A DNA stretch of 64,000 nt from Candidatus Poribacteria bacterium (GTDB lineage: Bacteria; Poribacteria; WGA-4E; WGA-3G), in assembly GCA_964291315.2 (NCBI GenBank), contig OZ219751.1, positions 1 to 64,000 on the forward strand, written 5' to 3'. Each line of letters begins with the position of its first letter. Position 1 is the stretch's first letter. The translations under genes and the position numbers were made by a program. Positions 19,042 to 61,598 of the stretch are shown one piece after another. Below the pieces are notes generated by a model that saw only the letters and a program-made list of their open reading frames with translations, was not told where the DNA came from and searched no databases.

Positions 19042-19205
19042 TATTTTTCTCCTTAAGATCAGAAAACTCGAAATTCAATCCCTAATTGCGTATTTTACAA
19101 TTTGTAAACATCCATGTCAACTTTTTTCCGAACAATTCGTTGATAAAGTATATCTAAATTAATAATAAAGTTAACACAGTATTATCAAAAAAAGGAGAAA
19201 GAAAA

Positions 19206-19469
19206 ATGAAAGATAAAAAAATAACACAAGAAACCCAAGAATCCACTAAAGATGCAGCTATTCGTGTACTCGGAACAGTATTGGAATCCTTACCCGGTAA
19301 TTTGTTTCATGTGATGTTAGAAGATAACGATCACAAAGTTGTAGCATACCTGGCCGGCAAACTGATGCAGCATAAAATCTGGGTACTTCCCGGTGATCAG
19401 GTTACCGTTGAACTTTCTCCATATGATCTCACGCGTGGACGCATCGTCTGGCGGAGCCCAGGGGCTTAG
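19206..19469 (+). CDS. infA: Translation initiation factor IF-1
   Basis: G.V.E.LP...[19 protein letters not shown]; RBS AAGGAG. Confidence 0.95.
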
Positions 19470-20644: not shown

Positions 20645-21368
20645 GAAAAGCGAGCAGAAGCTTGGATATTTTGAAAATAGGGTGAAGCAGGCAAAATTTA
20701 TGGATCGCCCGAATCGGCAGAAGGTGCGCGCTGCTAGTGCCCAAGTCGGTATGCACTCGGCGCAATTGGAAGGGTTACGCAGTGAATTGTATCAGCTCGA
20801 ACGACTTTATAGCGGAGGTCTTTGTTTCCATCAAGCTACAGAGAATGAACTCCGTCAAATTTGGGGATGGGTAAACCGACCGGCCATCAGAAAATACCTT
20901 TACACAGCGCGGGTGTCGTTTGAAACCTTTCTCAAGGATTGGCACCGTTGGAGTGCAGAAGAACGGACACACCCGCTTGCTATCGAACTCTATACAACGC
21001 GACTCCTCGTGGGGTTTATTCTTCTTCAGCATGAAGCCGAAACCGTCACTATCAAATTCGTTGTCGTTCGACCCGATTACCGTGCTCGTGGGTATGGCAC
21101 AGATACACTCGTTAAAGCTACCCGTTACGCTTTTGAGCAACTCAATGCCGAGCATATCACGGTACACGTATCCGTTGACAACGGGCCCGCACTCATCTGT
21201 TTTGAGAATGCAGGGTTTCGGTACCTCGGTTACACAGATACTGTAGGACAGAACTACATGATGGGCATTGAACGCAGCGAATGGGAAGGCGACACGCCAA
21301 TAGACGAGGAAGTGGTATTTCCACGCCTCAGTACCCCTCTAGGAGCGTTTTTTGAGAAAGAAAAATAA
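20541..21368 (+). CDS. GNAT family N-acetyltransferase with N-terminal coiled-coil extension
   Basis: VRPDYRARGYGT acetyl-CoA motif and N.PA..CFE..GF; RBS GGGAG upstream of ATG 20541. Confidence 0.8.
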   Translation: MNETRIRNEPVETRDANADPQKWAAAIQNLLRIIEKSEQKLGYFENRVKQAKFMDRPNRQKVRAASAQVGMHSAQLEGLRSELYQLERLYSGGLCFHQATENELRQIWGWVNRPAIRKYLYTARVSFETFLKDWHRWSAEERTHPLAIELYTTRLLVGFILLQHEAETVTIKFVVVRPDYRARGYGTDTLVKATRYAFEQLNAEHITVHVSVDNGPALICFENAGFRYLGYTDTVGQNYMMGIERSEWEGDTPIDEEVVFPRLSTPLGAFFEKEK

Positions 21369-21578
21369 TTCTTTTTTTAGGTATTTGGTGTTCTTCTAGT
21401 AGCAATTTTGGGGGTTGTCAATATACCGGCCACGCTCGAAAAAGAAGATAAGCACTTTTCCTACTTTACCTATTTTGAGGAATAACGGTTATTTCTATAC
21501 TTTTCCCGGTAGAACGGAACTCCGATACTAGACTTTTGTCGGACGCATTCGCATATCCGGACTGTGTTCCCTTATACT

Positions 21579-21689
21579 TTAGTGCGGAATCGCCGGTATA
21601 TACCTGATTAAACCCAATAAACCCCTTAAAGATAACGCTTTACCTTGGTGCAGAATGCCGGTACATGCTCTGACGGGTAGAAGATTCAT
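21579..21689 (-). CDS. Putative small protein, 36 aa (MNLLPVRACTGILHQGKALSLRGLLGLIRYIPAIPH)
   Basis: RBS-like AAAGGGG 3 nt before the ATG; below the ORF-track size cut-off; no recognisable family. Confidence 0.25.
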   Translation of the reverse strand: MNLLPVRACTGILHQGKALSLRGLLGLIRYIPAIPH

Positions 21690-21975
21690 TTGCCCCTTTG
21701 CTTATGTTTTCTCTATTGCTATTCTAAAGCACCAATTGTTCAGTTGACTTTTATTGTAAATTTGTTGTTTTATTCAATATAATGGGATATTGTCGGGATT
21801 TGGAAATCCATCCGCCCGGGCGCAAAGTGAAGTTTCTTCGTACCGGGATTTCGGAAGTTTTTTCAGATTAATTGATAAAAGTGCATCCGAAGATGTGTAT
21901 AAGCGAATCATTGTCATTTTCCTTATGGCAATGGTATCCTACTACCGCTGTATCGCGGAAAAGGAGGTATTTGTT

Positions 21976-22008
21976 ATGTTAGCAAACCAGAGGAGGTGTG
22001 ACACTTAG
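21976..22008 (+). CDS. Putative mini-ORF MLANQRRCDT
   Basis: Perfect AAGGAGGT RBS at 21961-21968, 7 nt before the ATG. Confidence 0.3.
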   Translation: MLANQRRCDT

Positions 22009-22052
22009 TGTTGCGCCCTTGTGGTGTGACATTTAGTGTCGCACGCTTTGGA

Positions 22053-22089
22053 AGGGGCAGGGGGTTAAAATCCCTCTGTCCCCTGTTTT
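22053..22089 (+). terminator. Rho-independent terminator
   Basis: GC-rich stem AGGGGCAGGGGG/TCCCTCTGTCCCCT followed by GTTTT. Confidence 0.7.
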
Positions 22090-22224
22090 CGATATATGCT
22101 ATTCTTATCTTATGTTAAAAATAGGGCTAACTGAATTTTCATAGCATATTTTTTATCTTATTTTCCTGCCCAAACTGCAGATCTTACGATGCCAGATGCA
22201 GCAGGCACCATAGTCTAATTTAAC

Positions 22225-22253
22225 TTGCTTTTCCTCTTGAAATGTGTTAATAT
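22225..22253 (+). promoter_or_regulatory. Sigma70-type promoter
   Basis: TTGCTT-N17-TAATAT with TG at -15/-14. Confidence 0.55.
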
Positions 22254-22266
22254 AAATGAATATCTA

Positions 22267-22447
22267 TAGGAAGTATCTCTGAAGATACTATCCCAGCAGC
22301 GGGTCCCAAGGCCGTCCACAGAGACCATCGACTCCAGGGGCCTTAGCAGGTTTTCGTGCAAGCGAAGCAGCAATTTTAGCACGACCGACAGTGGATCTGC
22401 CTATATCTCGCTAGTAGGGGATGCCAATTTTTGATATACTATCCTAT
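22267..22447 (+). ncRNA. Candidate ~180-nt rod-shaped ncRNA (6S RNA-like)
   Basis: Nested complementary segments ATAGGAAGTAT/ATACTATCCTAT, ATCCC/GGGAT, AGCGGG/CTCGCT, AGGC/GCCT, TCCAC/GTGGA, TCGTGC/GCACGA; lies between a promoter and a terminator. Confidence 0.45.
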
Positions 22448-22451
22448 GTAC

Positions 22452-22490
22452 TTAGCAAGGGATGTTTTTTTGCTAACATTTTTTAATTTT
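22452..22490 (+). terminator. Rho-independent terminator after the candidate ncRNA
   Basis: TTAGCAAGGG/TTTTTGCTAA stem followed by T-rich tract. Confidence 0.55.
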
Positions 22491-22534
22491 CAACAGTTCT
22501 AAACTACAAACAAAATGAAAAGGAGGAGGTACCT

Positions 22535-22621
22535 ATGATGCTAAATTTGAACCACGCCACACTTTATCTGAAAACATATAGTCCACGGCGATGGTGCCTC
22601 TGCCCATTATCGACGATTTGA
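22535..22621 (+). CDS. Putative small/leader protein, 28 aa (MMLNLNHATLYLKTYSPRRWCLCPLSTI)
   Basis: Very strong RBS AAGGAGGAGGT immediately upstream. Confidence 0.35.
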   Translation: MMLNLNHATLYLKTYSPRRWCLCPLSTI

Positions 22622-22671
22622 TTGAAATGGCATAGGCGTGGTCGCCTCACATGTGAGGAGTCGGTCTATCT

Positions 22672-23046
22672 ATGCCCGAGTTTAATTCAGACTTTTGGGA
22701 GGTTCCGGTCCCACCGGAGTATTTTGATCAATTTACTACAGAGGACTGTCTCTGGTATCGAGCACCTGACGACGAATATACCGTAGCTCGTCATCTCAAG
22801 CGGCAAATGGTCTTGGAACAGATCCGACAGATTATCGCAAACGACCTAACTCACCGCCAAGCCGAGTGTGTTCATCTCTACTTCTATAAAGGCAAAACCC
22901 AAGAAGAGATTGGCTGCATCCTTGGTATCTCCCGGCGTGTTGTCAGTCAACACCTCTTTGGTATCACACGAAACGGGAAGCAGATAGGGGGCGCGATTAA
23001 CAAAATTCGCAAGATGTGCCGAAAGCGGGGAATAGAATTTCCTTAG
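22672..23046 (+). CDS. Sigma-70 region 4 (HTH)-only protein
   Basis: LT.RQ.ECV.LYF..GKTQEEIG.ILGISRRVVSQHL; no sigma region 2; RBS GAGGAG. Confidence 0.8.
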   Translation: MPEFNSDFWEVPVPPEYFDQFTTEDCLWYRAPDDEYTVARHLKRQMVLEQIRQIIANDLTHRQAECVHLYFYKGKTQEEIGCILGISRRVVSQHLFGITRNGKQIGGAINKIRKMCRKRGIEFP

Positions 23047-23494
23047 TCCTAAAGAACTAATCTGTTCATCAACACTACCAGTGCAATTCAATGCGGGAGG
23101 AAACTTTAACGGTCGCCTCTCGCTTGGAAGCACTTCAACCACTCCGACCTGCTATTGGAAGGATTTTCCGATCTCGCCTCTTTCATTTCCACTCTTTACC
23201 TTTTTCATAAGACTAAACGTCCTATCACTTCCTGTTAATTGCTGACAGCTAACGATTCAGACAGACATACCTTGCTAAAAAAAAGCATCCGTGATATGCT
23301 AATCCATATCATATTTGGTATTTCTGACGAAAAGCGGAATATTATGGTGCTTCAAGTTGCAATTATCGGTCGTGACAGGATGGAAAATGGGTGTCTCAAT
23401 GCATATTTCGCAATAAAGTGTTTTAACAACAGAGACAAGGTCATGGTAGGAAAACCCATGGGCTTTACGGTCAAAGCAAGCCGCGCGATTATTG

Positions 23495-23641
23495 CAGCAG
23501 CAAAACCCGACAACAAGATCGCAGCAATCGCTACTTGATGCCGAAGTAGGTCTCCGCGCAAAATCGATCTGTGAAGCAAATTCTTGCGGACAGTCTGTCG
23601 ACTATGAAGAGGTAGTGGCACGGAATATTGAAAACTACTAG
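23495..23641 (+). pseudogene. Possible decayed remnant of a Gfo/Idh/MocA C-terminus
   Basis: One frame reads LLDAEVGLRAKSICEA..GQSVDYEEV, resembling oxidoreductase C-termini; weak. Confidence 0.2.
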
Positions 23642-23671
23642 AAACCGATCAACGGACGGTGGAATCTCTAA

Positions 23672-24970
23672 TTGTCTAAACAGGAAAGCTCTCTAACACC
23701 ACGTGCAGAGGAAGGTCAATCGGAGGTGAGGAGACCGGTTGGATATTTCGAACTCATCCGCCGCAATCTCAACTTCCGTTGTCTCTGGGCGGGGCAAGTC
23801 GCTAGCCTCCTCGGTGACTGGTTTAATCTTATCGCGTCTGCAATATTAATCGCTAAATTGACTGGGTCAGGACTCGCGATGGGGATCCTATTCACAATCC
23901 GAATGGTGGCCCCTTTTGTGATTGCCCCGATTGCGGGAATATGCGCAGACCGGTACAACCGAAAGCACCTCTTAATCATCACTGACATTACACGTGCCTT
24001 TATTGTTTTCGGATTCCTTTTTGTCCGGAACGAGAGTCATGTATGGCTTTTCTATACCTTCACAATGCTACTGTCTGCAGTGAGTGGCTTCTTCAGTCCT
24101 GCTCGGAGTGCTATTCTGCCGGACATCACTTCCGCACAAGAACTCGGTGCCGCTAACACCCTAGGGGCTGCGACGTGGTCAGTAATGCTCGCGTTTGGTG
24201 CAATGATCGGCGGTTTAACAACCGGAATCTTTGGCATCCAAACAGCTTTTATTGTTGACGGTTTGACGTTTTTGGTTTCAGCTGCTTTTCTACTTCCAAT
24301 TAAGCTGCCCGGGCCGCCTTCTGTTGCCCCCGGGACCCCTGCTCAGGCAAAGCTAAGTGCCTTACGGTACATGTTCCGGGATCCTGACATTCTTTTCATT
24401 GCGATGCATAAAGCAGCCCTGGCCCTCCTACTCTCTTCCGGATTTCAGATTTTACAAATAGAAATCGCGAACACCCACTTTGTCATCGGAGGCGGCGGGG
24501 CGATCAGCTTAGGCCTTATGTATGGTGTAAACGGGATCGGTAGCGGCATCGGTCCCATTCTCACACGGCGTTGGACCGGCGATCAAGATAGGTTACTTCG
24601 GATAAGTATTAGTATCGGCTACCTCGTTGGTACATTTGGACTCGTTATTACTGCTCCGATCTATGATCTCACAACCGTACTTATCGGTGGATTTGTCCGA
24701 AGCGTGGGCGGTGGAATGATATGGGTTTTTTCAACCCAGCTCTTGTTCCAGAGGGCACCGAATGAGCTCCGAGGACGCATTTTCAGTACGGAGTTTGCCT
24801 TCTTTACACTTATGGCGAGCGTTGCTACAGCAGTCGTAGGCTCACTGTTAGATCGGTTTCCGCTCCACACGATTCTCTGGGGAATGGCAGCACTCCCTCT
24901 TATTCCAACGGTCCTGTGGTCCTTGTGGCAGACGCGTTACAATCAACGAAATCAGGATAGGAGTCTGTAA
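23672..24970 (+). CDS. MFS transporter (DHA3/MefA-like)
   Basis: NFRCLW.GQ..S..GDW, G..ADRYNRK and P.ELRGR motifs; ~12 TM. Confidence 0.9.
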   Translation: MSKQESSLTPRAEEGQSEVRRPVGYFELIRRNLNFRCLWAGQVASLLGDWFNLIASAILIAKLTGSGLAMGILFTIRMVAPFVIAPIAGICADRYNRKHLLIITDITRAFIVFGFLFVRNESHVWLFYTFTMLLSAVSGFFSPARSAILPDITSAQELGAANTLGAATWSVMLAFGAMIGGLTTGIFGIQTAFIVDGLTFLVSAAFLLPIKLPGPPSVAPGTPAQAKLSALRYMFRDPDILFIAMHKAALALLLSSGFQILQIEIANTHFVIGGGGAISLGLMYGVNGIGSGIGPILTRRWTGDQDRLLRISISIGYLVGTFGLVITAPIYDLTTVLIGGFVRSVGGGMIWVFSTQLLFQRAPNELRGRIFSTEFAFFTLMASVATAVVGSLLDRFPLHTILWGMAALPLIPTVLWSLWQTRYNQRNQDRSL

Positions 24971-61469: not shown

Positions 61470-61507
61470 TATTACGTCCTAGCTGTCTTGCTTTGCTATA
61501 AAGATAG

Positions 61508-61598
61508 CGGGAGAGGGTGGGAGTCGAACCCACCTATCCACTTGCATGGACAAGCCGGTTTTGAAGACCGGTAGGGCCACCGGACCCTATCCTCCCCC
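61508..61598 (-). tRNA. selC: tRNA-Sec (anticodon UCA)
   Basis: 8-bp acceptor GGGGGAGG/CCTCTCCC, long D stem, CCGGT-CTTCAAA-ACCGG anticodon arm, long variable arm, GTTCGACTC T loop; directly after selB; CCA not encoded. Confidence 0.95.

What the first reader, a model, noticed from the sequence alone, without database searches (positions are those of the whole stretch)
21754..23046. Candidate RNA/peptide regulatory system ending in a sigma-70 region-4-only protein
Two modules share a layout (promoter, ~200-nt structured RNA, AAAAGGAGG RBS, mini-ORF starting ML.N, hairpins) with similar start contexts (AAAAGGAGGTATTTGTTATGTTAGCAAACCA vs AAAAGGAGGAGGTACCTATGATGCTAAATTTGAACCA). The second mini-ORF lies within an ACCACGCC/GGCGTGGT stem, and a CCTCACATGTGAGG palindrome overlaps the RBS of a 124-aa protein that has only sigma region 4. 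Established: 6S RNA contacts sigma70 region 4.2. Inference: a possibly undescribed control module linking structured RNAs, leader peptides and a sigma-4 decoy or activator.
Basis: partly seen in the sequence, partly recalled or inferred. Interest (0 to 1): 0.7.

Follow-up and report, generated by a model that had tools for sequence, protein, structure and literature searches.

The report
Sigma-4 regulator with promoter box, RNA leaders
A small DNA-binding protein built like the promoter-reading end of a sigma factor sits beside a conserved short RNA and a structured leader, and shares with them a promoter motif seen almost only in genomes that carry the protein, which points to an undescribed self-regulating gene switch in sponge-symbiont bacteria and some related phyla.

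Summary
The window comes from a Candidatus Poribacteria genome. The 124-aa ORF (22672-23046) is a sigma-70 domain-4-only protein by Pfam and by fold.

Conserved:
- A promoter-type box, AAAAGTGCATCC-N6-GTGTATAA (21877-21903).
- A ~180-nt structured RNA with a strong SD, a 10-codon ORF, tandem hairpins and an intrinsic terminator (to 22089).
- A second strong-SD uORF (22535-22621) that runs through a covarying helix.
- A hairpin that sequesters the gene's SD (22645-22658).

Not conserved:
- The ACCACGCC/GGCGTGGT stem.
- The second "structured RNA" (22160-22428), a dispersed-repeat insertion with no excess folding.

New findings: the box occurs 1-7 times per genome upstream of varied genes, and it co-occurs with the protein. 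In 151 Poribacteria genomes, 107 have both, 33 neither, 9 protein only and 2 box only. The box, the uORF leader and the 10-codon RNA also flank the gene's homologues in Latescibacterota, Handelsmanbacteria and Planctomycetota MAGs.

Best reading: an autoregulated factor that reads the -35 region, with a partner small RNA and translational leader control. The 6S-like decoy idea has no support. Nothing has been tested experimentally, and no RNA data were available.

The parts
21877..21903 (+). Promoter-type box AAAAGTGCATCC-N6-GTGTATAA (box core 21879-21888; -10-like GTGTATAAG). Inferred transcription start about 21904-21907.
   Evidence: Nearly invariant in 58 of 58 copies. It is the only strong match in the own genome (PWM score 32.8, next best 15.8). 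The same motif stands upstream of the gene in 12 of 12 distant-phylum loci and upstream of other genes in relatives.
21907..21935 (+). 5' hairpin H1 of the module A RNA (21907-21916 pairs with 21926-21935).
   Evidence: 10 pairs, 99.8% of cells paired. GC/GU/AU and UA/UG/CG switches occur at 3 pairs. The G-U pairs only work on the + strand.
21945..21958 (+). Small hairpin H2 (CCGC-TGTATC-GCGG).
   Evidence: 3 counted pairs, 100% paired, with one-sided changes only.
21963..21967 (+). Shine-Dalgarno sequence of mini-ORF 1 (within AAAAGGAGGT).
   Evidence: GGAGG is invariant in 58 of 58 copies.
21976..22008 (+). Mini-ORF 1: 10 codons plus stop (MLANQRRCDT*). It holds an internal extended SD-like GGAGGTG (21992-21998). 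The stop lies at the loop and 3' arm of hairpin A.
   Evidence: 10-11 codons in all Poribacteria copies found. 9-10 codons with an internal GGAGG/GAGGTGG in other genera and phyla, with different peptides.
21995..22044 (+). Tandem hairpins A (21995-22004:22008-22017) and B (22024-22032:22036-22044), formed by a 26-nt direct repeat. They can also fold as a nested 1:4 + 2:3 form.
   Evidence: Direct repeat D1. Tandem model 99.8-100% paired. RNAalifold prefers the nested alternative.
22054..22089 (+). Intrinsic terminator of module A (11-bp stem 22054-22064:22072-22082, then a T-run).
   Evidence: Terminator scan. 5 of its 11 pairs show compensatory changes.
22160..22428 (+). Lineage-specific insertion of a dispersed repeat. 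It is not part of the conserved system and may supply a replacement promoter.
   Evidence: Absent in relatives. 5 other copies in the genome at 69-79% identity. Fold z-score -0.15.
22522..22529 (+). Shine-Dalgarno sequence of mini-ORF 2 (GGAGGAGG).
   Evidence: AGGAGG is 90% or more conserved in alignment A3.
22535..22621 (+). Mini-ORF 2 (28 codons; the conserved start is the second ATG, 22538). Its stop TGA 22619-22621 lies in the loop of helix P_B1.
   Evidence: The ORF is kept in 65 of 68 loci although indels put its 3' half in different frames. Variation shows no 3-nt periodicity.
22594..22639 (+). Helix P_B1 (22594-22607 pairs with 22627-22639). Its 5' arm lies inside mini-ORF 2.
   Evidence: 98.2% of 672 cells paired against 27-47% when the partner is slid. 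12 compensatory cells at 2 pairs; 0 of 500 shuffles reach this.
22645..22660 (+). SD-sequestering hairpin CCTCA-CATG-TGAGG (22645-22658), overlapping the gene's SD GAGGAG (22655-22660).
   Evidence: Predicted in nearly all of the 56 aligned leaders, with variable loops and variant stems.
22672..23046 (+). Gene for the 124-aa sigma domain-4-only protein.
23047..23137 (+). Conserved 3' flank of the gene, of unknown role.
   Evidence: The blastn blocks extend to about 23137 in nearly all same-genus loci.

Best explanation
The locus is a small self-contained regulatory system made of three linked parts.

(1) The 124-aa protein is a sigma domain-4 fold DNA-binding factor. I infer that it recognises the box AAAGTGCATCC, which sits where a -35 element would be, just upstream of a -10-like GTGTATA. 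The box heads the protein's own locus and, in relatives, 1-7 promoters per genome. These include infA, WD40-repeat proteins, ABC-2 permeases and a DAO oxidoreductase. The protein would therefore be an autoregulated promoter-specific activator. Less likely, it is the -35-reading half of a split sigma factor.

(2) The box at 21877 drives a ~180-nt structured RNA (module A) that ends at an intrinsic terminator. This RNA carries a strong SD and a 10-codon ORF with an internal extended SD-like GGAGGTG. The ORF's stop lies in a hairpin. ORF length and layout are conserved across phyla, but the peptide is not. The ORF therefore probably acts through the ribosome's position on the RNA, not through its product.

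(3) The gene's own leader carries a second translated uORF. It runs through the 5' arm of helix P_B1 and stops in its loop, upstream of a weak hairpin that hides the gene's SD. I infer that uORF translation remodels the leader and so sets the protein's translation.

In this genome the second box seen in some relatives is gone and a repeat has been inserted. The gene is therefore probably transcribed by read-through of the module A terminator, or from the inserted repeat.

What is shown: conservation, covariation, co-occurrence and fold. What is inferred: DNA binding, promoter activity, translation of the uORFs and the switching.
For: Fold and family. Pfam finds region 4 only. Sigma domain 4 tops the structural lists. 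The recognition-helix residues R89, V91, S92, Q93 and H94 are invariant across 51 sequences from several phyla.

The box as a promoter. All 19 of 19 extra boxes fetched from relatives are followed by GTGTA plus an A/T-rich hexamer, and by a same-strand ORF of 60 aa or more that starts 66-466 nt downstream.

Box-protein link. In 151 Poribacteria genomes the protein is in 116 and the exact box pattern in 109. Both are present in 107, protein only in 9, box only in 2 (genomes 90% and 73% complete) and neither in 33. The pattern read backwards gave 0 hits in all 151. At genus level the box is in 9 of 13 genera with the protein and in 0 of 9 without. The 61-genome sample gave the same picture. The box also precedes the gene in 12 of 12 loci from other phyla or deep Poribacteria lineages.

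Module A. The alignment has 58 copies and 84% mean column identity. The five-helix model has 99.6% of 2486 cells paired, and 9 pairs (27 cells) carry compensatory changes; 0 of 500 shuffles reach this, and slid controls give 33-61%. Module A is single-copy and adjacent to the gene in 34 of 36 same-genus genomes. Homologous modules sit next to the gene upstream or downstream in other phyla.

Leader. Helix P_B1 is supported by covariation. The SD hairpin is conserved. uORF2 stays open across frame changes.
Against: - There are no expression data. No RNA run holds the stretch, so the start site, termination and uORF translation are all unproven.
- Co-occurrence does not show binding. Kin are not independent, and another co-inherited factor could read the box.
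- In this genome the box occurs only once, so a 'regulon' exists only in relatives.
- The box-to-(-10) geometry does not match a standard -35/-10 spacing, and the -10 register is ambiguous.
- The proposed switch helix P_alt (AGGCG:CGCCT) is 91.7% paired but shows no covariation beyond shuffles.
- The peptides show no amino-acid-level selection, which leaves the uORFs' role indirect.
- In genus g3 the box upstream of the gene heads a ~97-aa ORF, membrane-like by eye, instead of module A.
- 9 genomes have the protein without an exact box match. At least some of these carry variant boxes.
Confidence: 0.5

Rival explanations
1. Split (two-subunit) sigma factor. The protein would be the region-4 half, like Tn916 Sig7 or B. 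subtilis SigO. With an undetected region-2 partner it would form a dedicated holoenzyme that reads the box promoters, with positive feedback on its own promoter.
For: The fold is closer to true sigma domain 4, including the preceding linker helix, than to LuxR/GerE: Z 9-11 against about 6. A region-4-only protein with an RsoA-like partner that drives its own promoter is described for Tn916 (bioRxiv 10.64898/2026.10.01.756105, passages read). The N-terminal FNPDFWE motif is conserved but modelled with low confidence, which could be a partner-binding motif.
Against: No partner gene is conserved next to it across phyla; the neighbours are RNAs and mini-ORFs. All 21 Pfam region-2 matches in the own genome lie in open frames of 185 aa or more, although RsoA-like proteins may escape that model. 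The conserved blocks of the box lie too close together for a usual -35/-10 pair.
Confidence: 0.17
2. The protein is only one member of a regulon read by some other factor, such as an alternative sigma or activator that is inherited with it. The mini-ORF leaders would be ordinary attenuators unrelated to the protein's own activity.
For: Co-occurrence cannot tell 'binds the box' from 'is driven by the box'. Two genomes have boxes without a detected protein (G106, G155).
Against: The gene-box pairing holds across at least four phylum labels while the other box-driven genes change. In this genome the only box is at this locus. The recognition helix and the box core are both invariant. The two box-only genomes are 90% and 73% complete.
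Confidence: 0.15
3. Module A is not a separate small RNA. It would be a cis-acting transcription attenuator of the sigma-4 gene: mini-ORF 1 translation chooses between the alternative pairings of the tandem hairpins and so sets read-through of the terminator at 22054-22089.
For: Module A has the same strand and order as the gene in Poribacteria. The 26-nt repeat allows 1:2+3:4 or 1:4+2:3 folds. The mini-ORF stop sits in hairpin A. In this genome no second box precedes the gene.
Against: In Latescibacterota, Handelsmanbacteria and Planctomycetota MAG loci the homologous module lies downstream of the gene. In L101, L104 and L106 it faces a convergent gene. No pairing between the hairpins and the terminator stem was identified. 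12-13 Poribacteria loci have a second box after the terminator.
Confidence: 0.12
4. One reading: the structured RNAs bind the sigma-4-only protein, or RNA polymerase, in a 6S-like way, and the protein acts as a region-4 decoy.
For: RNA and protein genes are syntenic across phyla.
Against: No Rfam family, 6S included, matches 21300-23700 at E<=10, and none matches 6 related loci at gathering score. The RNA has strong SDs, a kept ORF and a terminator rather than a promoter-bubble mimic. The shared box explains the synteny without any RNA-protein contact. Half of 'module 2' is a repeat insertion.
Confidence: 0.05

Closest known systems
Tn916 Sig7 (Orf7) with Sig8, and B. subtilis SigO-RsoA: two-subunit sigma factors
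   Same: A small protein that consists essentially of sigma region 4, with inferred positive autoregulation from its own promoter. For Tn916 I read passages only. SigO-RsoA is recalled, apart from the mention of RsoA in those passages.
   Different: No region-2-like partner gene was found beside it or detected in the genome. It is chromosomal and conserved across phyla rather than on a mobile element. It is flanked by a small RNA and a uORF leader.
GerE of B. subtilis and other stand-alone LuxR/FixJ-type HTH regulators (recalled)
   Same: A domain-only HTH protein of the same superfamily that acts near the -35 region of promoters.
   Different: The Pfam GerE match is below its cut-off (20.0 against 23.5 bits). 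Structurally it is nearer sigma domain 4 (Z 11.3) than GerE (Z 6.0). It also has an extra conserved N-terminal motif and a beta-hairpin insertion at residues 98-105.
Phage T4 middle promoters: a MotA box at about -30 plus an extended -10, with sigma appropriation by AsiA/MotA (recalled)
   Same: The promoter architecture: a factor-specific box replaces the -35 element next to a -10 with upstream TG.
   Different: A different, unrelated protein. Nothing here shows remodelling of the host sigma. The context is cellular, not phage.
Transcription factor with an adjacent, factor-dependent small RNA that also encodes a peptide, such as SgrR-SgrS/SgrT (recalled)
   Same: The regulator gene and a ~200-nt RNA with a short ORF are kept as neighbours.
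   Different: Here both carry the same promoter box and lie in tandem. The ORF has only 10 codons and its peptide is not conserved. No target pairing was found.
Leader-peptide control of translation by SD sequestration, such as the ermC, secM-secA and tnaC types (recalled)
   Same: A strongly initiated uORF overlaps one arm of a helix upstream of a hairpin that hides the SD of the regulated gene.
   Different: No arrest motif or conserved peptide is evident. The switch helix is unproven. The regulated gene is a transcription factor.

Membership tests
Sigma-70 family sigma factor (complete) | Region 2 (core binding, -10 recognition) | tested here: not met
   Pfam finds only Sigma70_r4 and r4_2 in the 124 aa. 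The model has no second globular domain; residues 1-35 have low pLDDT.
Sigma-70 family sigma factor (complete) | Region 4 (HTH, -35 recognition) | tested here: met
   PF04545 E 5.7e-11, above its cut-off. VIA-align Z 9-11 to sigma domain 4 of SigL, SigH, SigE and SigB.
Two-subunit (split) sigma factor, region-4 subunit | Stand-alone region-4 protein | tested here: met
Two-subunit (split) sigma factor, region-4 subunit | Co-encoded region-2-like (RsoA/Sig8-type) partner | tested here: inconclusive
   No conserved neighbouring protein ORF across phyla. All 21 PF04542 matches in the genome lie in frames of 185 aa or more. RsoA-like proteins may not match PF04542.
GerE/LuxR stand-alone HTH regulators | Match to the GerE (PF00196) model above its curated cut-off | tested here: not met
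   20.0 bits against a cut-off of 23.5. GerE 1fse_A reaches Z 6.0 against 11.3 for sigma domain 4.
6S RNA | Match to the Rfam 6S covariance models or an open-promoter mimic | tested here: not met
   No Rfam match of any family in 21300-23700 at E<=10. None in 6 related loci at gathering score.
Leader-peptide transcription attenuator (trp type) | Short translated ORF, alternative hairpins, and a terminator directly before the regulated gene | tested here: inconclusive
   The ORF, alternative pairings and terminator are present. However, the terminator lies 580 nt before the gene here, the homologous module lies downstream of the gene in other phyla, and no run of regulatory codons is seen.
uORF-dependent translational attenuation by SD sequestration | SD of the regulated gene paired in a conserved hairpin, with the uORF overlapping an upstream helix | tested here: met
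   The SD hairpin is in nearly all of 56 leaders. P_B1 is supported by covariation, and the uORF2 stop lies in its loop.
uORF-dependent translational attenuation by SD sequestration | Ribosome stalling or translation actually changes downstream initiation | not testable with these tools
   This needs toeprinting or reporter assays. The candidate switch helix is not supported beyond conservation.

The most novel reading that the evidence does not exclude
A widespread, undescribed kind of promoter-recognition module. A free-standing sigma domain 4 would supply -35-type recognition of a dedicated promoter class (AAAGTGCATCC box plus GTGTATA) to RNA polymerase. It would do so by taking the place of the housekeeping sigma's own domain 4, or as half of a split sigma. 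Its level would be set by a translation-coupled circuit of two ribosome-sensing RNAs: a 10-codon ORF RNA with two strong SDs, and a uORF leader. The three parts would be inherited together across at least Poribacteria, Latescibacterota and Handelsmanbacteria-labelled genomes. In sponge symbionts the module would control WD40 'eukaryote-like' proteins and infA.
Probability: 0.2. Interest if true: 0.8.

Novelty: new variant of a known kind. Interest (0 to 1): 0.62.

Why it matters
Gene regulation in Poribacteria, Latescibacterota and similar uncultured phyla is almost unknown. This locus offers three testable things:
- A precisely defined promoter motif with a candidate cognate factor.
- A small regulon that can be read straight from genomes. 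In relatives it includes WD40-repeat proteins and translation initiation factor IF-1.
- A conserved small RNA and leader architecture that is absent from Rfam.

If the protein really supplies -35 recognition as a free-standing sigma domain 4, it would add a chromosomal, cross-phylum example to the few known split or appropriated sigma systems. All of this could be tested in vitro or in E. coli without culturing the symbiont.

Tried and rejected
- Rfam. Nothing at gathering score in the window except tRNA-Sec. Nothing at E<=10 in 21300-23700. Nothing in 6 related loci.
- Expression. No RNA holder was listed for 21700-23300. The 4 runs listed are contigs of one study and are not on record as RNA.
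- Trans pairing of module A RNA with the gene leader. RNA.duplexfold on 45 species pairs against dinucleotide shuffles gave a mean z of -0.67. The duplexes were long and loop-ridden, so I dropped the idea. The short GGAGG:CCTCC complementarities I saw by eye are not evidence.
- Peptide-level selection on uORF2. Variability is equal at codon positions 1, 2 and 3 (for example 0.80/0.77/0.77), so the peptide is not shown to be conserved as a protein.
- A regulon in the own genome. A PWM built from 19 extra boxes found only the locus's own box (7 real against 9 control hits above 12 bits). An earlier, stricter PWM gave the same result. The weak look-alike at C4:1311018(-) scores at background level.
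- The 36-aa GTG ORF 22008..22118 and the 72-aa ORF 21790..22008. Indels in relatives break these frames, so I rejected them as genes.
- Foldseek against PDB gave no match at E<=0.001, although the top rows were sigma region 4. phmmer against PDB sequences gave only weak sigma hits (6pfj, E 8.6e-4) and a designed repeat protein.
- Literature. A full-text search for the box string gave 154 papers, and the 10 listed were unrelated primer-type hits (listing only). 'Poribacteria' + 'sigma factor' + 'promoter' gave 4 papers, 2 listed, neither about this (listing and abstract starts). 'two-subunit sigma factor' / 'region 4' led to the Tn916 preprint (passages read). I found no description of this family, box or RNA in those three searches. 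Supplementary files were not consulted.
- BLAST with module A DNA found nothing outside the genus (0 of 24 genomes). That is a sensitivity limit, because modules were then seen by eye in genus g5 and family f7.
Full report
ORIGIN AND GENE. The window is contig C2:1-64000 of a 4.4-Mb, 4-contig genome. Its closest public relatives are titled Candidatus Poribacteria MAGs. The ORF 22672..23046(+) encodes 124 aa. These match only Pfam Sigma70_r4 (E 5.7e-11, residues 58-95) and Sigma70_r4_2. GerE and Sigma70_ECF fall below their cut-offs, and there is no region 2.

An AlphaFold2 model built on a 51-sequence alignment has mean pLDDT 83. It shows helices at 35-58, 61-72, 77-84, 88-96 and 108-119, and a beta-hairpin at 98-105. 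Residues 1-35 are poorly modelled, although they hold the invariant F8-W9-E10. Foldseek gave no hit at E<=0.001, but its top rows were sigma region 4. VIA-align against 48,161 chains put sigma domain 4 in the first 24 rows. The best was 6dv9_F at Z 11.3 with rmsd 1.8 A over 75 residues. SigE region 4 bound to -35 DNA reached Z 9.9, while NarL and GerE reached about 6. The tool warns that Z below about 13 is common for helical models, so this supports the fold assignment but says nothing about function.

The gene is single-copy here. The family is uncharacterised. Sources call it 'hypothetical' or 'sigma-70 region 4 domain-containing'. A profile search of 1.84 billion representatives found 226 at E<=1e-10 and 16 at E<=1e-30, mostly 110-170 aa. 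The language-model atlas places it among clusters of small Sigma70_r4 proteins.

WHAT IS CONSERVED AROUND IT. I ran blastn of 21172-24543 against 29 same-genus loci. The long 'intergenic' stretch 21369-22671 turned out to hold two conserved blocks. One is 21877-22103, at 82-89% identity, as high as or higher than the gene itself. The other runs from about 22493 through the gene to about 23137. The stretch 22160-22428 is missing in relatives, where 22159 abuts 22429.

That 269-nt piece has 5 other full or partial copies in the same genome at 69-79% identity. It folds no better than shuffles (-68.6 kcal/mol, z -0.15). Other copies lie upstream of genes, for example 50 nt before an ORF that looks rhodanese-like to me; I did not test that ORF.

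MODULE A (21877-22089). I aligned 57 distinct full-length copies plus the window (58 rows, 84% mean column identity). In order, module A contains:
- The nearly invariant box AAAAGTGCATCC-N6-GTGT(A/T)TAA.
- Hairpin H1 (21907-21916:21926-21935).
- A small hairpin (21945-21958).
- AAAGGAGG.
- A 10-codon ORF (21976-22008) containing GGAGGTG.
- Two tandem hairpins made by a 26-nt direct repeat.
- An intrinsic terminator.

For this five-helix structure, 99.6% of 2486 cells form standard pairs, against 33-61% when partners are slid. Nine pairs (27 cells) carry double changes, and 0 of 500 shuffles reach the observed values. The tool warns that related sequences can beat every shuffle. The slid controls and the many G-U/A-U/G-C switches, which only make sense on the + strand, are the stronger argument. 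RNAalifold prefers a nested alternative, with arm 1 pairing arm 4 and arm 2 pairing arm 3. The repeat permits both folds.

The mini-ORF has 10-11 codons in every Poribacteria copy found, and an in-frame stop is kept in the loop even where the loop has 1- or 3-nt insertions. Module A is single-copy in this genome. By BLAST it is present next to the gene in 34 of 36 same-genus genomes. The two genomes without it are the same two that lack the protein by search. They are 87% and 78% complete.

THE GENE'S OWN LEADER (about 22493-22671). An invariant AGGAGG and an ATG open mini-ORF 2. An SD+ATG ORF is kept in 65 of 68 Poribacteria-type loci. The three exceptions are L052, which is truncated, plus L085 and L089. 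Indels place the ORF's 3' half in at least two frames (...RRWCLCPLSTI against ...GDGASDLCR). Meanwhile the nucleotides GGCGATGGTGCCTCTG stay invariant, and the stop always falls 43-74 nt before the gene's ATG, mostly 47-56 nt. Variation shows no codon periodicity. The conserved features are therefore the RNA and the act of translation, not the peptide.

Helix P_B1 (22594-22607:22627-22639) is 98.2% paired over 672 cells. It has 12 compensatory cells (GC to AU, AU to UA), 0 of 500 shuffles reach this, and slid controls give 27-47%. Its 5' arm lies inside mini-ORF 2, and the stop codon lies in its loop.

It has variable loops and variant stems. A possible switch helix, AGGCG:CGCCT, would link the two. 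It is 91.7% paired but not supported beyond conservation.

THE BOX IS A PROMOTER-TYPE MOTIF TIED TO THE PROTEIN. Twelve more distant homologue loci carry Latescibacterota, Handelsmanbacteria, Planctomycetota or deep Poribacteria labels, at 44-53% protein identity. In all 12, AAAGTGCATCC stands 268-905 nt upstream of the gene. In 7 of the 12 a pattern search finds an SD plus a 13-21-codon uORF between box and gene. By eye I saw an anti-SD-like CTTCCTCC and a terminator-like hairpin just before the gene's SD, and one of these was also flagged by the scan in L101.

In five of these loci a second box follows the gene's stop at +374 to +386. It heads a module-A homologue: hairpins, GAAAGGAGG, a 10-codon ORF (MEPITWRCAV, MTAILWRCRV and others) with an internal GGAGGTG, a hairpin holding the stop, and a terminator. 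Three more loci have a variant box with the same module downstream. Three have the module upstream. Genus g5 and family f7 also have it upstream of the gene, with 9-10 codons. A pattern search found such a module in 62 of 80 loci.

In the 61 relatives first sampled, the exact pattern AAAGTGCATCCNNNNNNGTGT occurs 1-7 times per genome in the three genera that have the protein. It is not found in four genera without the protein (g2, g4, g6, g7), nor in g8, whose single genome gave only a weak 27%-identity protein hit. The pattern read backwards gave 0 hits everywhere.

In a phylum-wide sample of 151 genomes, 107 have both, 9 have the protein only, 2 have the box only and 33 have neither. By genus, the box is in 9 of 13 genera with the protein and in 0 of 9 without. 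The control again gave 0 of 151. Some 'protein only' cases carry one-letter variants of the pattern. For example L074, the public record of G007, has GCGT in place of GTGT.

I fetched 19 extra boxes from four relatives. All 19 are followed by GTGTA plus an A/T-rich hexamer, and by a same-strand ORF of 60 aa or more starting 66-466 nt downstream. I named four of these ORFs. Pfam identifies a WD40-repeat protein (PF00400, E 1.4e-89), an ABC-2 permease and a DAO oxidoreductase. I read infA (IF-1) off the translation. By eye, eight more of the ORFs carry the same LPEGA..RFG motif as the WD40 protein.

In this genome only one strong box exists. The infA box of relatives has decayed at about 19140-19170. 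Twelve to thirteen Poribacteria loci have a second box just after the module A terminator, 280-420 nt before the gene. The window does not have one. The repeat insertion lies a few bases upstream of the conserved TATACT.

INTERPRETATION. The shared box explains why RNA and protein genes travel together. The near-perfect co-occurrence suggests that the protein reads the box. So does the box upstream of the protein's own gene in every lineage, and so does the invariance of both the recognition helix (R89, V91, S92, Q93, H94) and the box core. The box sits at the -35 position, next to a -10-like element with upstream TG. That would make the protein an autoregulated activator at -35, or the region-4 half of a split sigma as now proposed for Tn916 Sig7-Sig8 (passages read). 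No region-2 partner was detected, so I rank the split-sigma reading second.

Module A is best read as a box-driven ~180-nt RNA whose 10-codon ORF positions a ribosome over the first hairpin. Its function is unknown. I found no support for pairing with the gene's leader. The leader combines a translated uORF, helix P_B1 and an SD hairpin, which is the layout of translational attenuation by SD sequestration. The coupling itself is inference.

Comparisons with GerE, T4 MotA, SigO-RsoA, SgrR-SgrS and ermC/secM rest on recalled knowledge, not on calls.

LIMITS. There are no RNA data and no binding test. Related genomes are not independent observations. Rfam has no family for either RNA, and three literature searches found no description. 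These show only that nothing turned up in those sources.

VERDICT. The real object is a conserved three-part unit of promoter box, sigma domain-4 factor and ribosome-sensing RNAs. It is a new variant of known regulatory kinds, and it deserves bench tests.

Noticed in passing
window 22160-22428, with copies at G000 C1:450706-450970(-), C3:270101-270265, C4:436277-436378(-), C4:670608-670696 and C4:897914-897980: This is a dispersed repeat. Its first ~100 nt are conserved and hold a palindrome (CTGCC..GGCAG). They also hold a block that looks promoter-like to me: TTGCTT (22225-22230), 17 nt, then TAATAT (22248-22253) preceded by TG. The scan tool did not flag this block. Full-length copies lie just upstream of genes, one of them an ORF that looks rhodanese-like to me. 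In the window the repeat is inserted between a decayed second box region and the conserved TATACT at 22435-22440.
   Followed up: partly
window 19140-19170 (upstream of infA, 19206-19469): In relative G008 a box stands about 66 nt before the infA start. The homologous stretch in the window reads TAAAGTATATCTAAATTAAT, which is a decayed box. This smaller genome appears to have lost box control of IF-1.
   Followed up: partly
L117, L119-L122, L124-L126 and L133 (relatives G008, G036, G043): Many box promoters in relatives head WD40-repeat proteins. Only L117 was checked with Pfam. The others share the LPEGA..RFG motif by eye, and several have signal-peptide-like N-termini. These are 'eukaryote-like' repeat proteins, so a symbiosis-related regulon is possible.
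   Followed up: partly
L137 (G053, genus g3), positions 40-460: In this genus the box upstream of the sigma-4 gene is followed by an SD and a ~97-aa ORF that looks membrane-like by eye, instead of module A. The uORF2-type leader before the gene is still present.
   Followed up: no
window 22672-23046, protein residues 1-35, 66 and 116: The N-terminal motif FNPDFWE is invariant or nearly so across phyla but is modelled with low confidence, so it may be a partner-binding motif. Cys116 is invariant and Cys66 is 90% or more conserved, which could point to redox or metal sensing.
   Followed up: no
window 23239-23538 (ATG at 23344; 64 aa): This is a small ORF downstream of the gene with no Pfam match. 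Its DNA is conserved only in some same-genus loci; blastn blocks 23265-23532 appear in L002, L003 and L006.
   Followed up: partly
window 61507-61598 (-): A selenocysteine tRNA gene (Rfam 78.1 bits; ARAGORN anticodon TCA).
   Followed up: no
G000 C4:25573-26219: A Sigma70_r2 match lies in a 206-aa open frame, and 300 nt further on a Sigma70_r4 match lies in a separate 106-aa open frame. This may be a frameshifted or split ECF sigma gene.
   Followed up: no
G040 C2:2764940-2767741 (L127-L129): Three boxes about 1.4 kb apart each head a paralogous pair of ORFs with no informative Pfam match (one starting MKI.LE.NG..PI.VNASI, plus a 105-aa ORF). This is a tandemly amplified box-driven cassette.
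   Followed up: no
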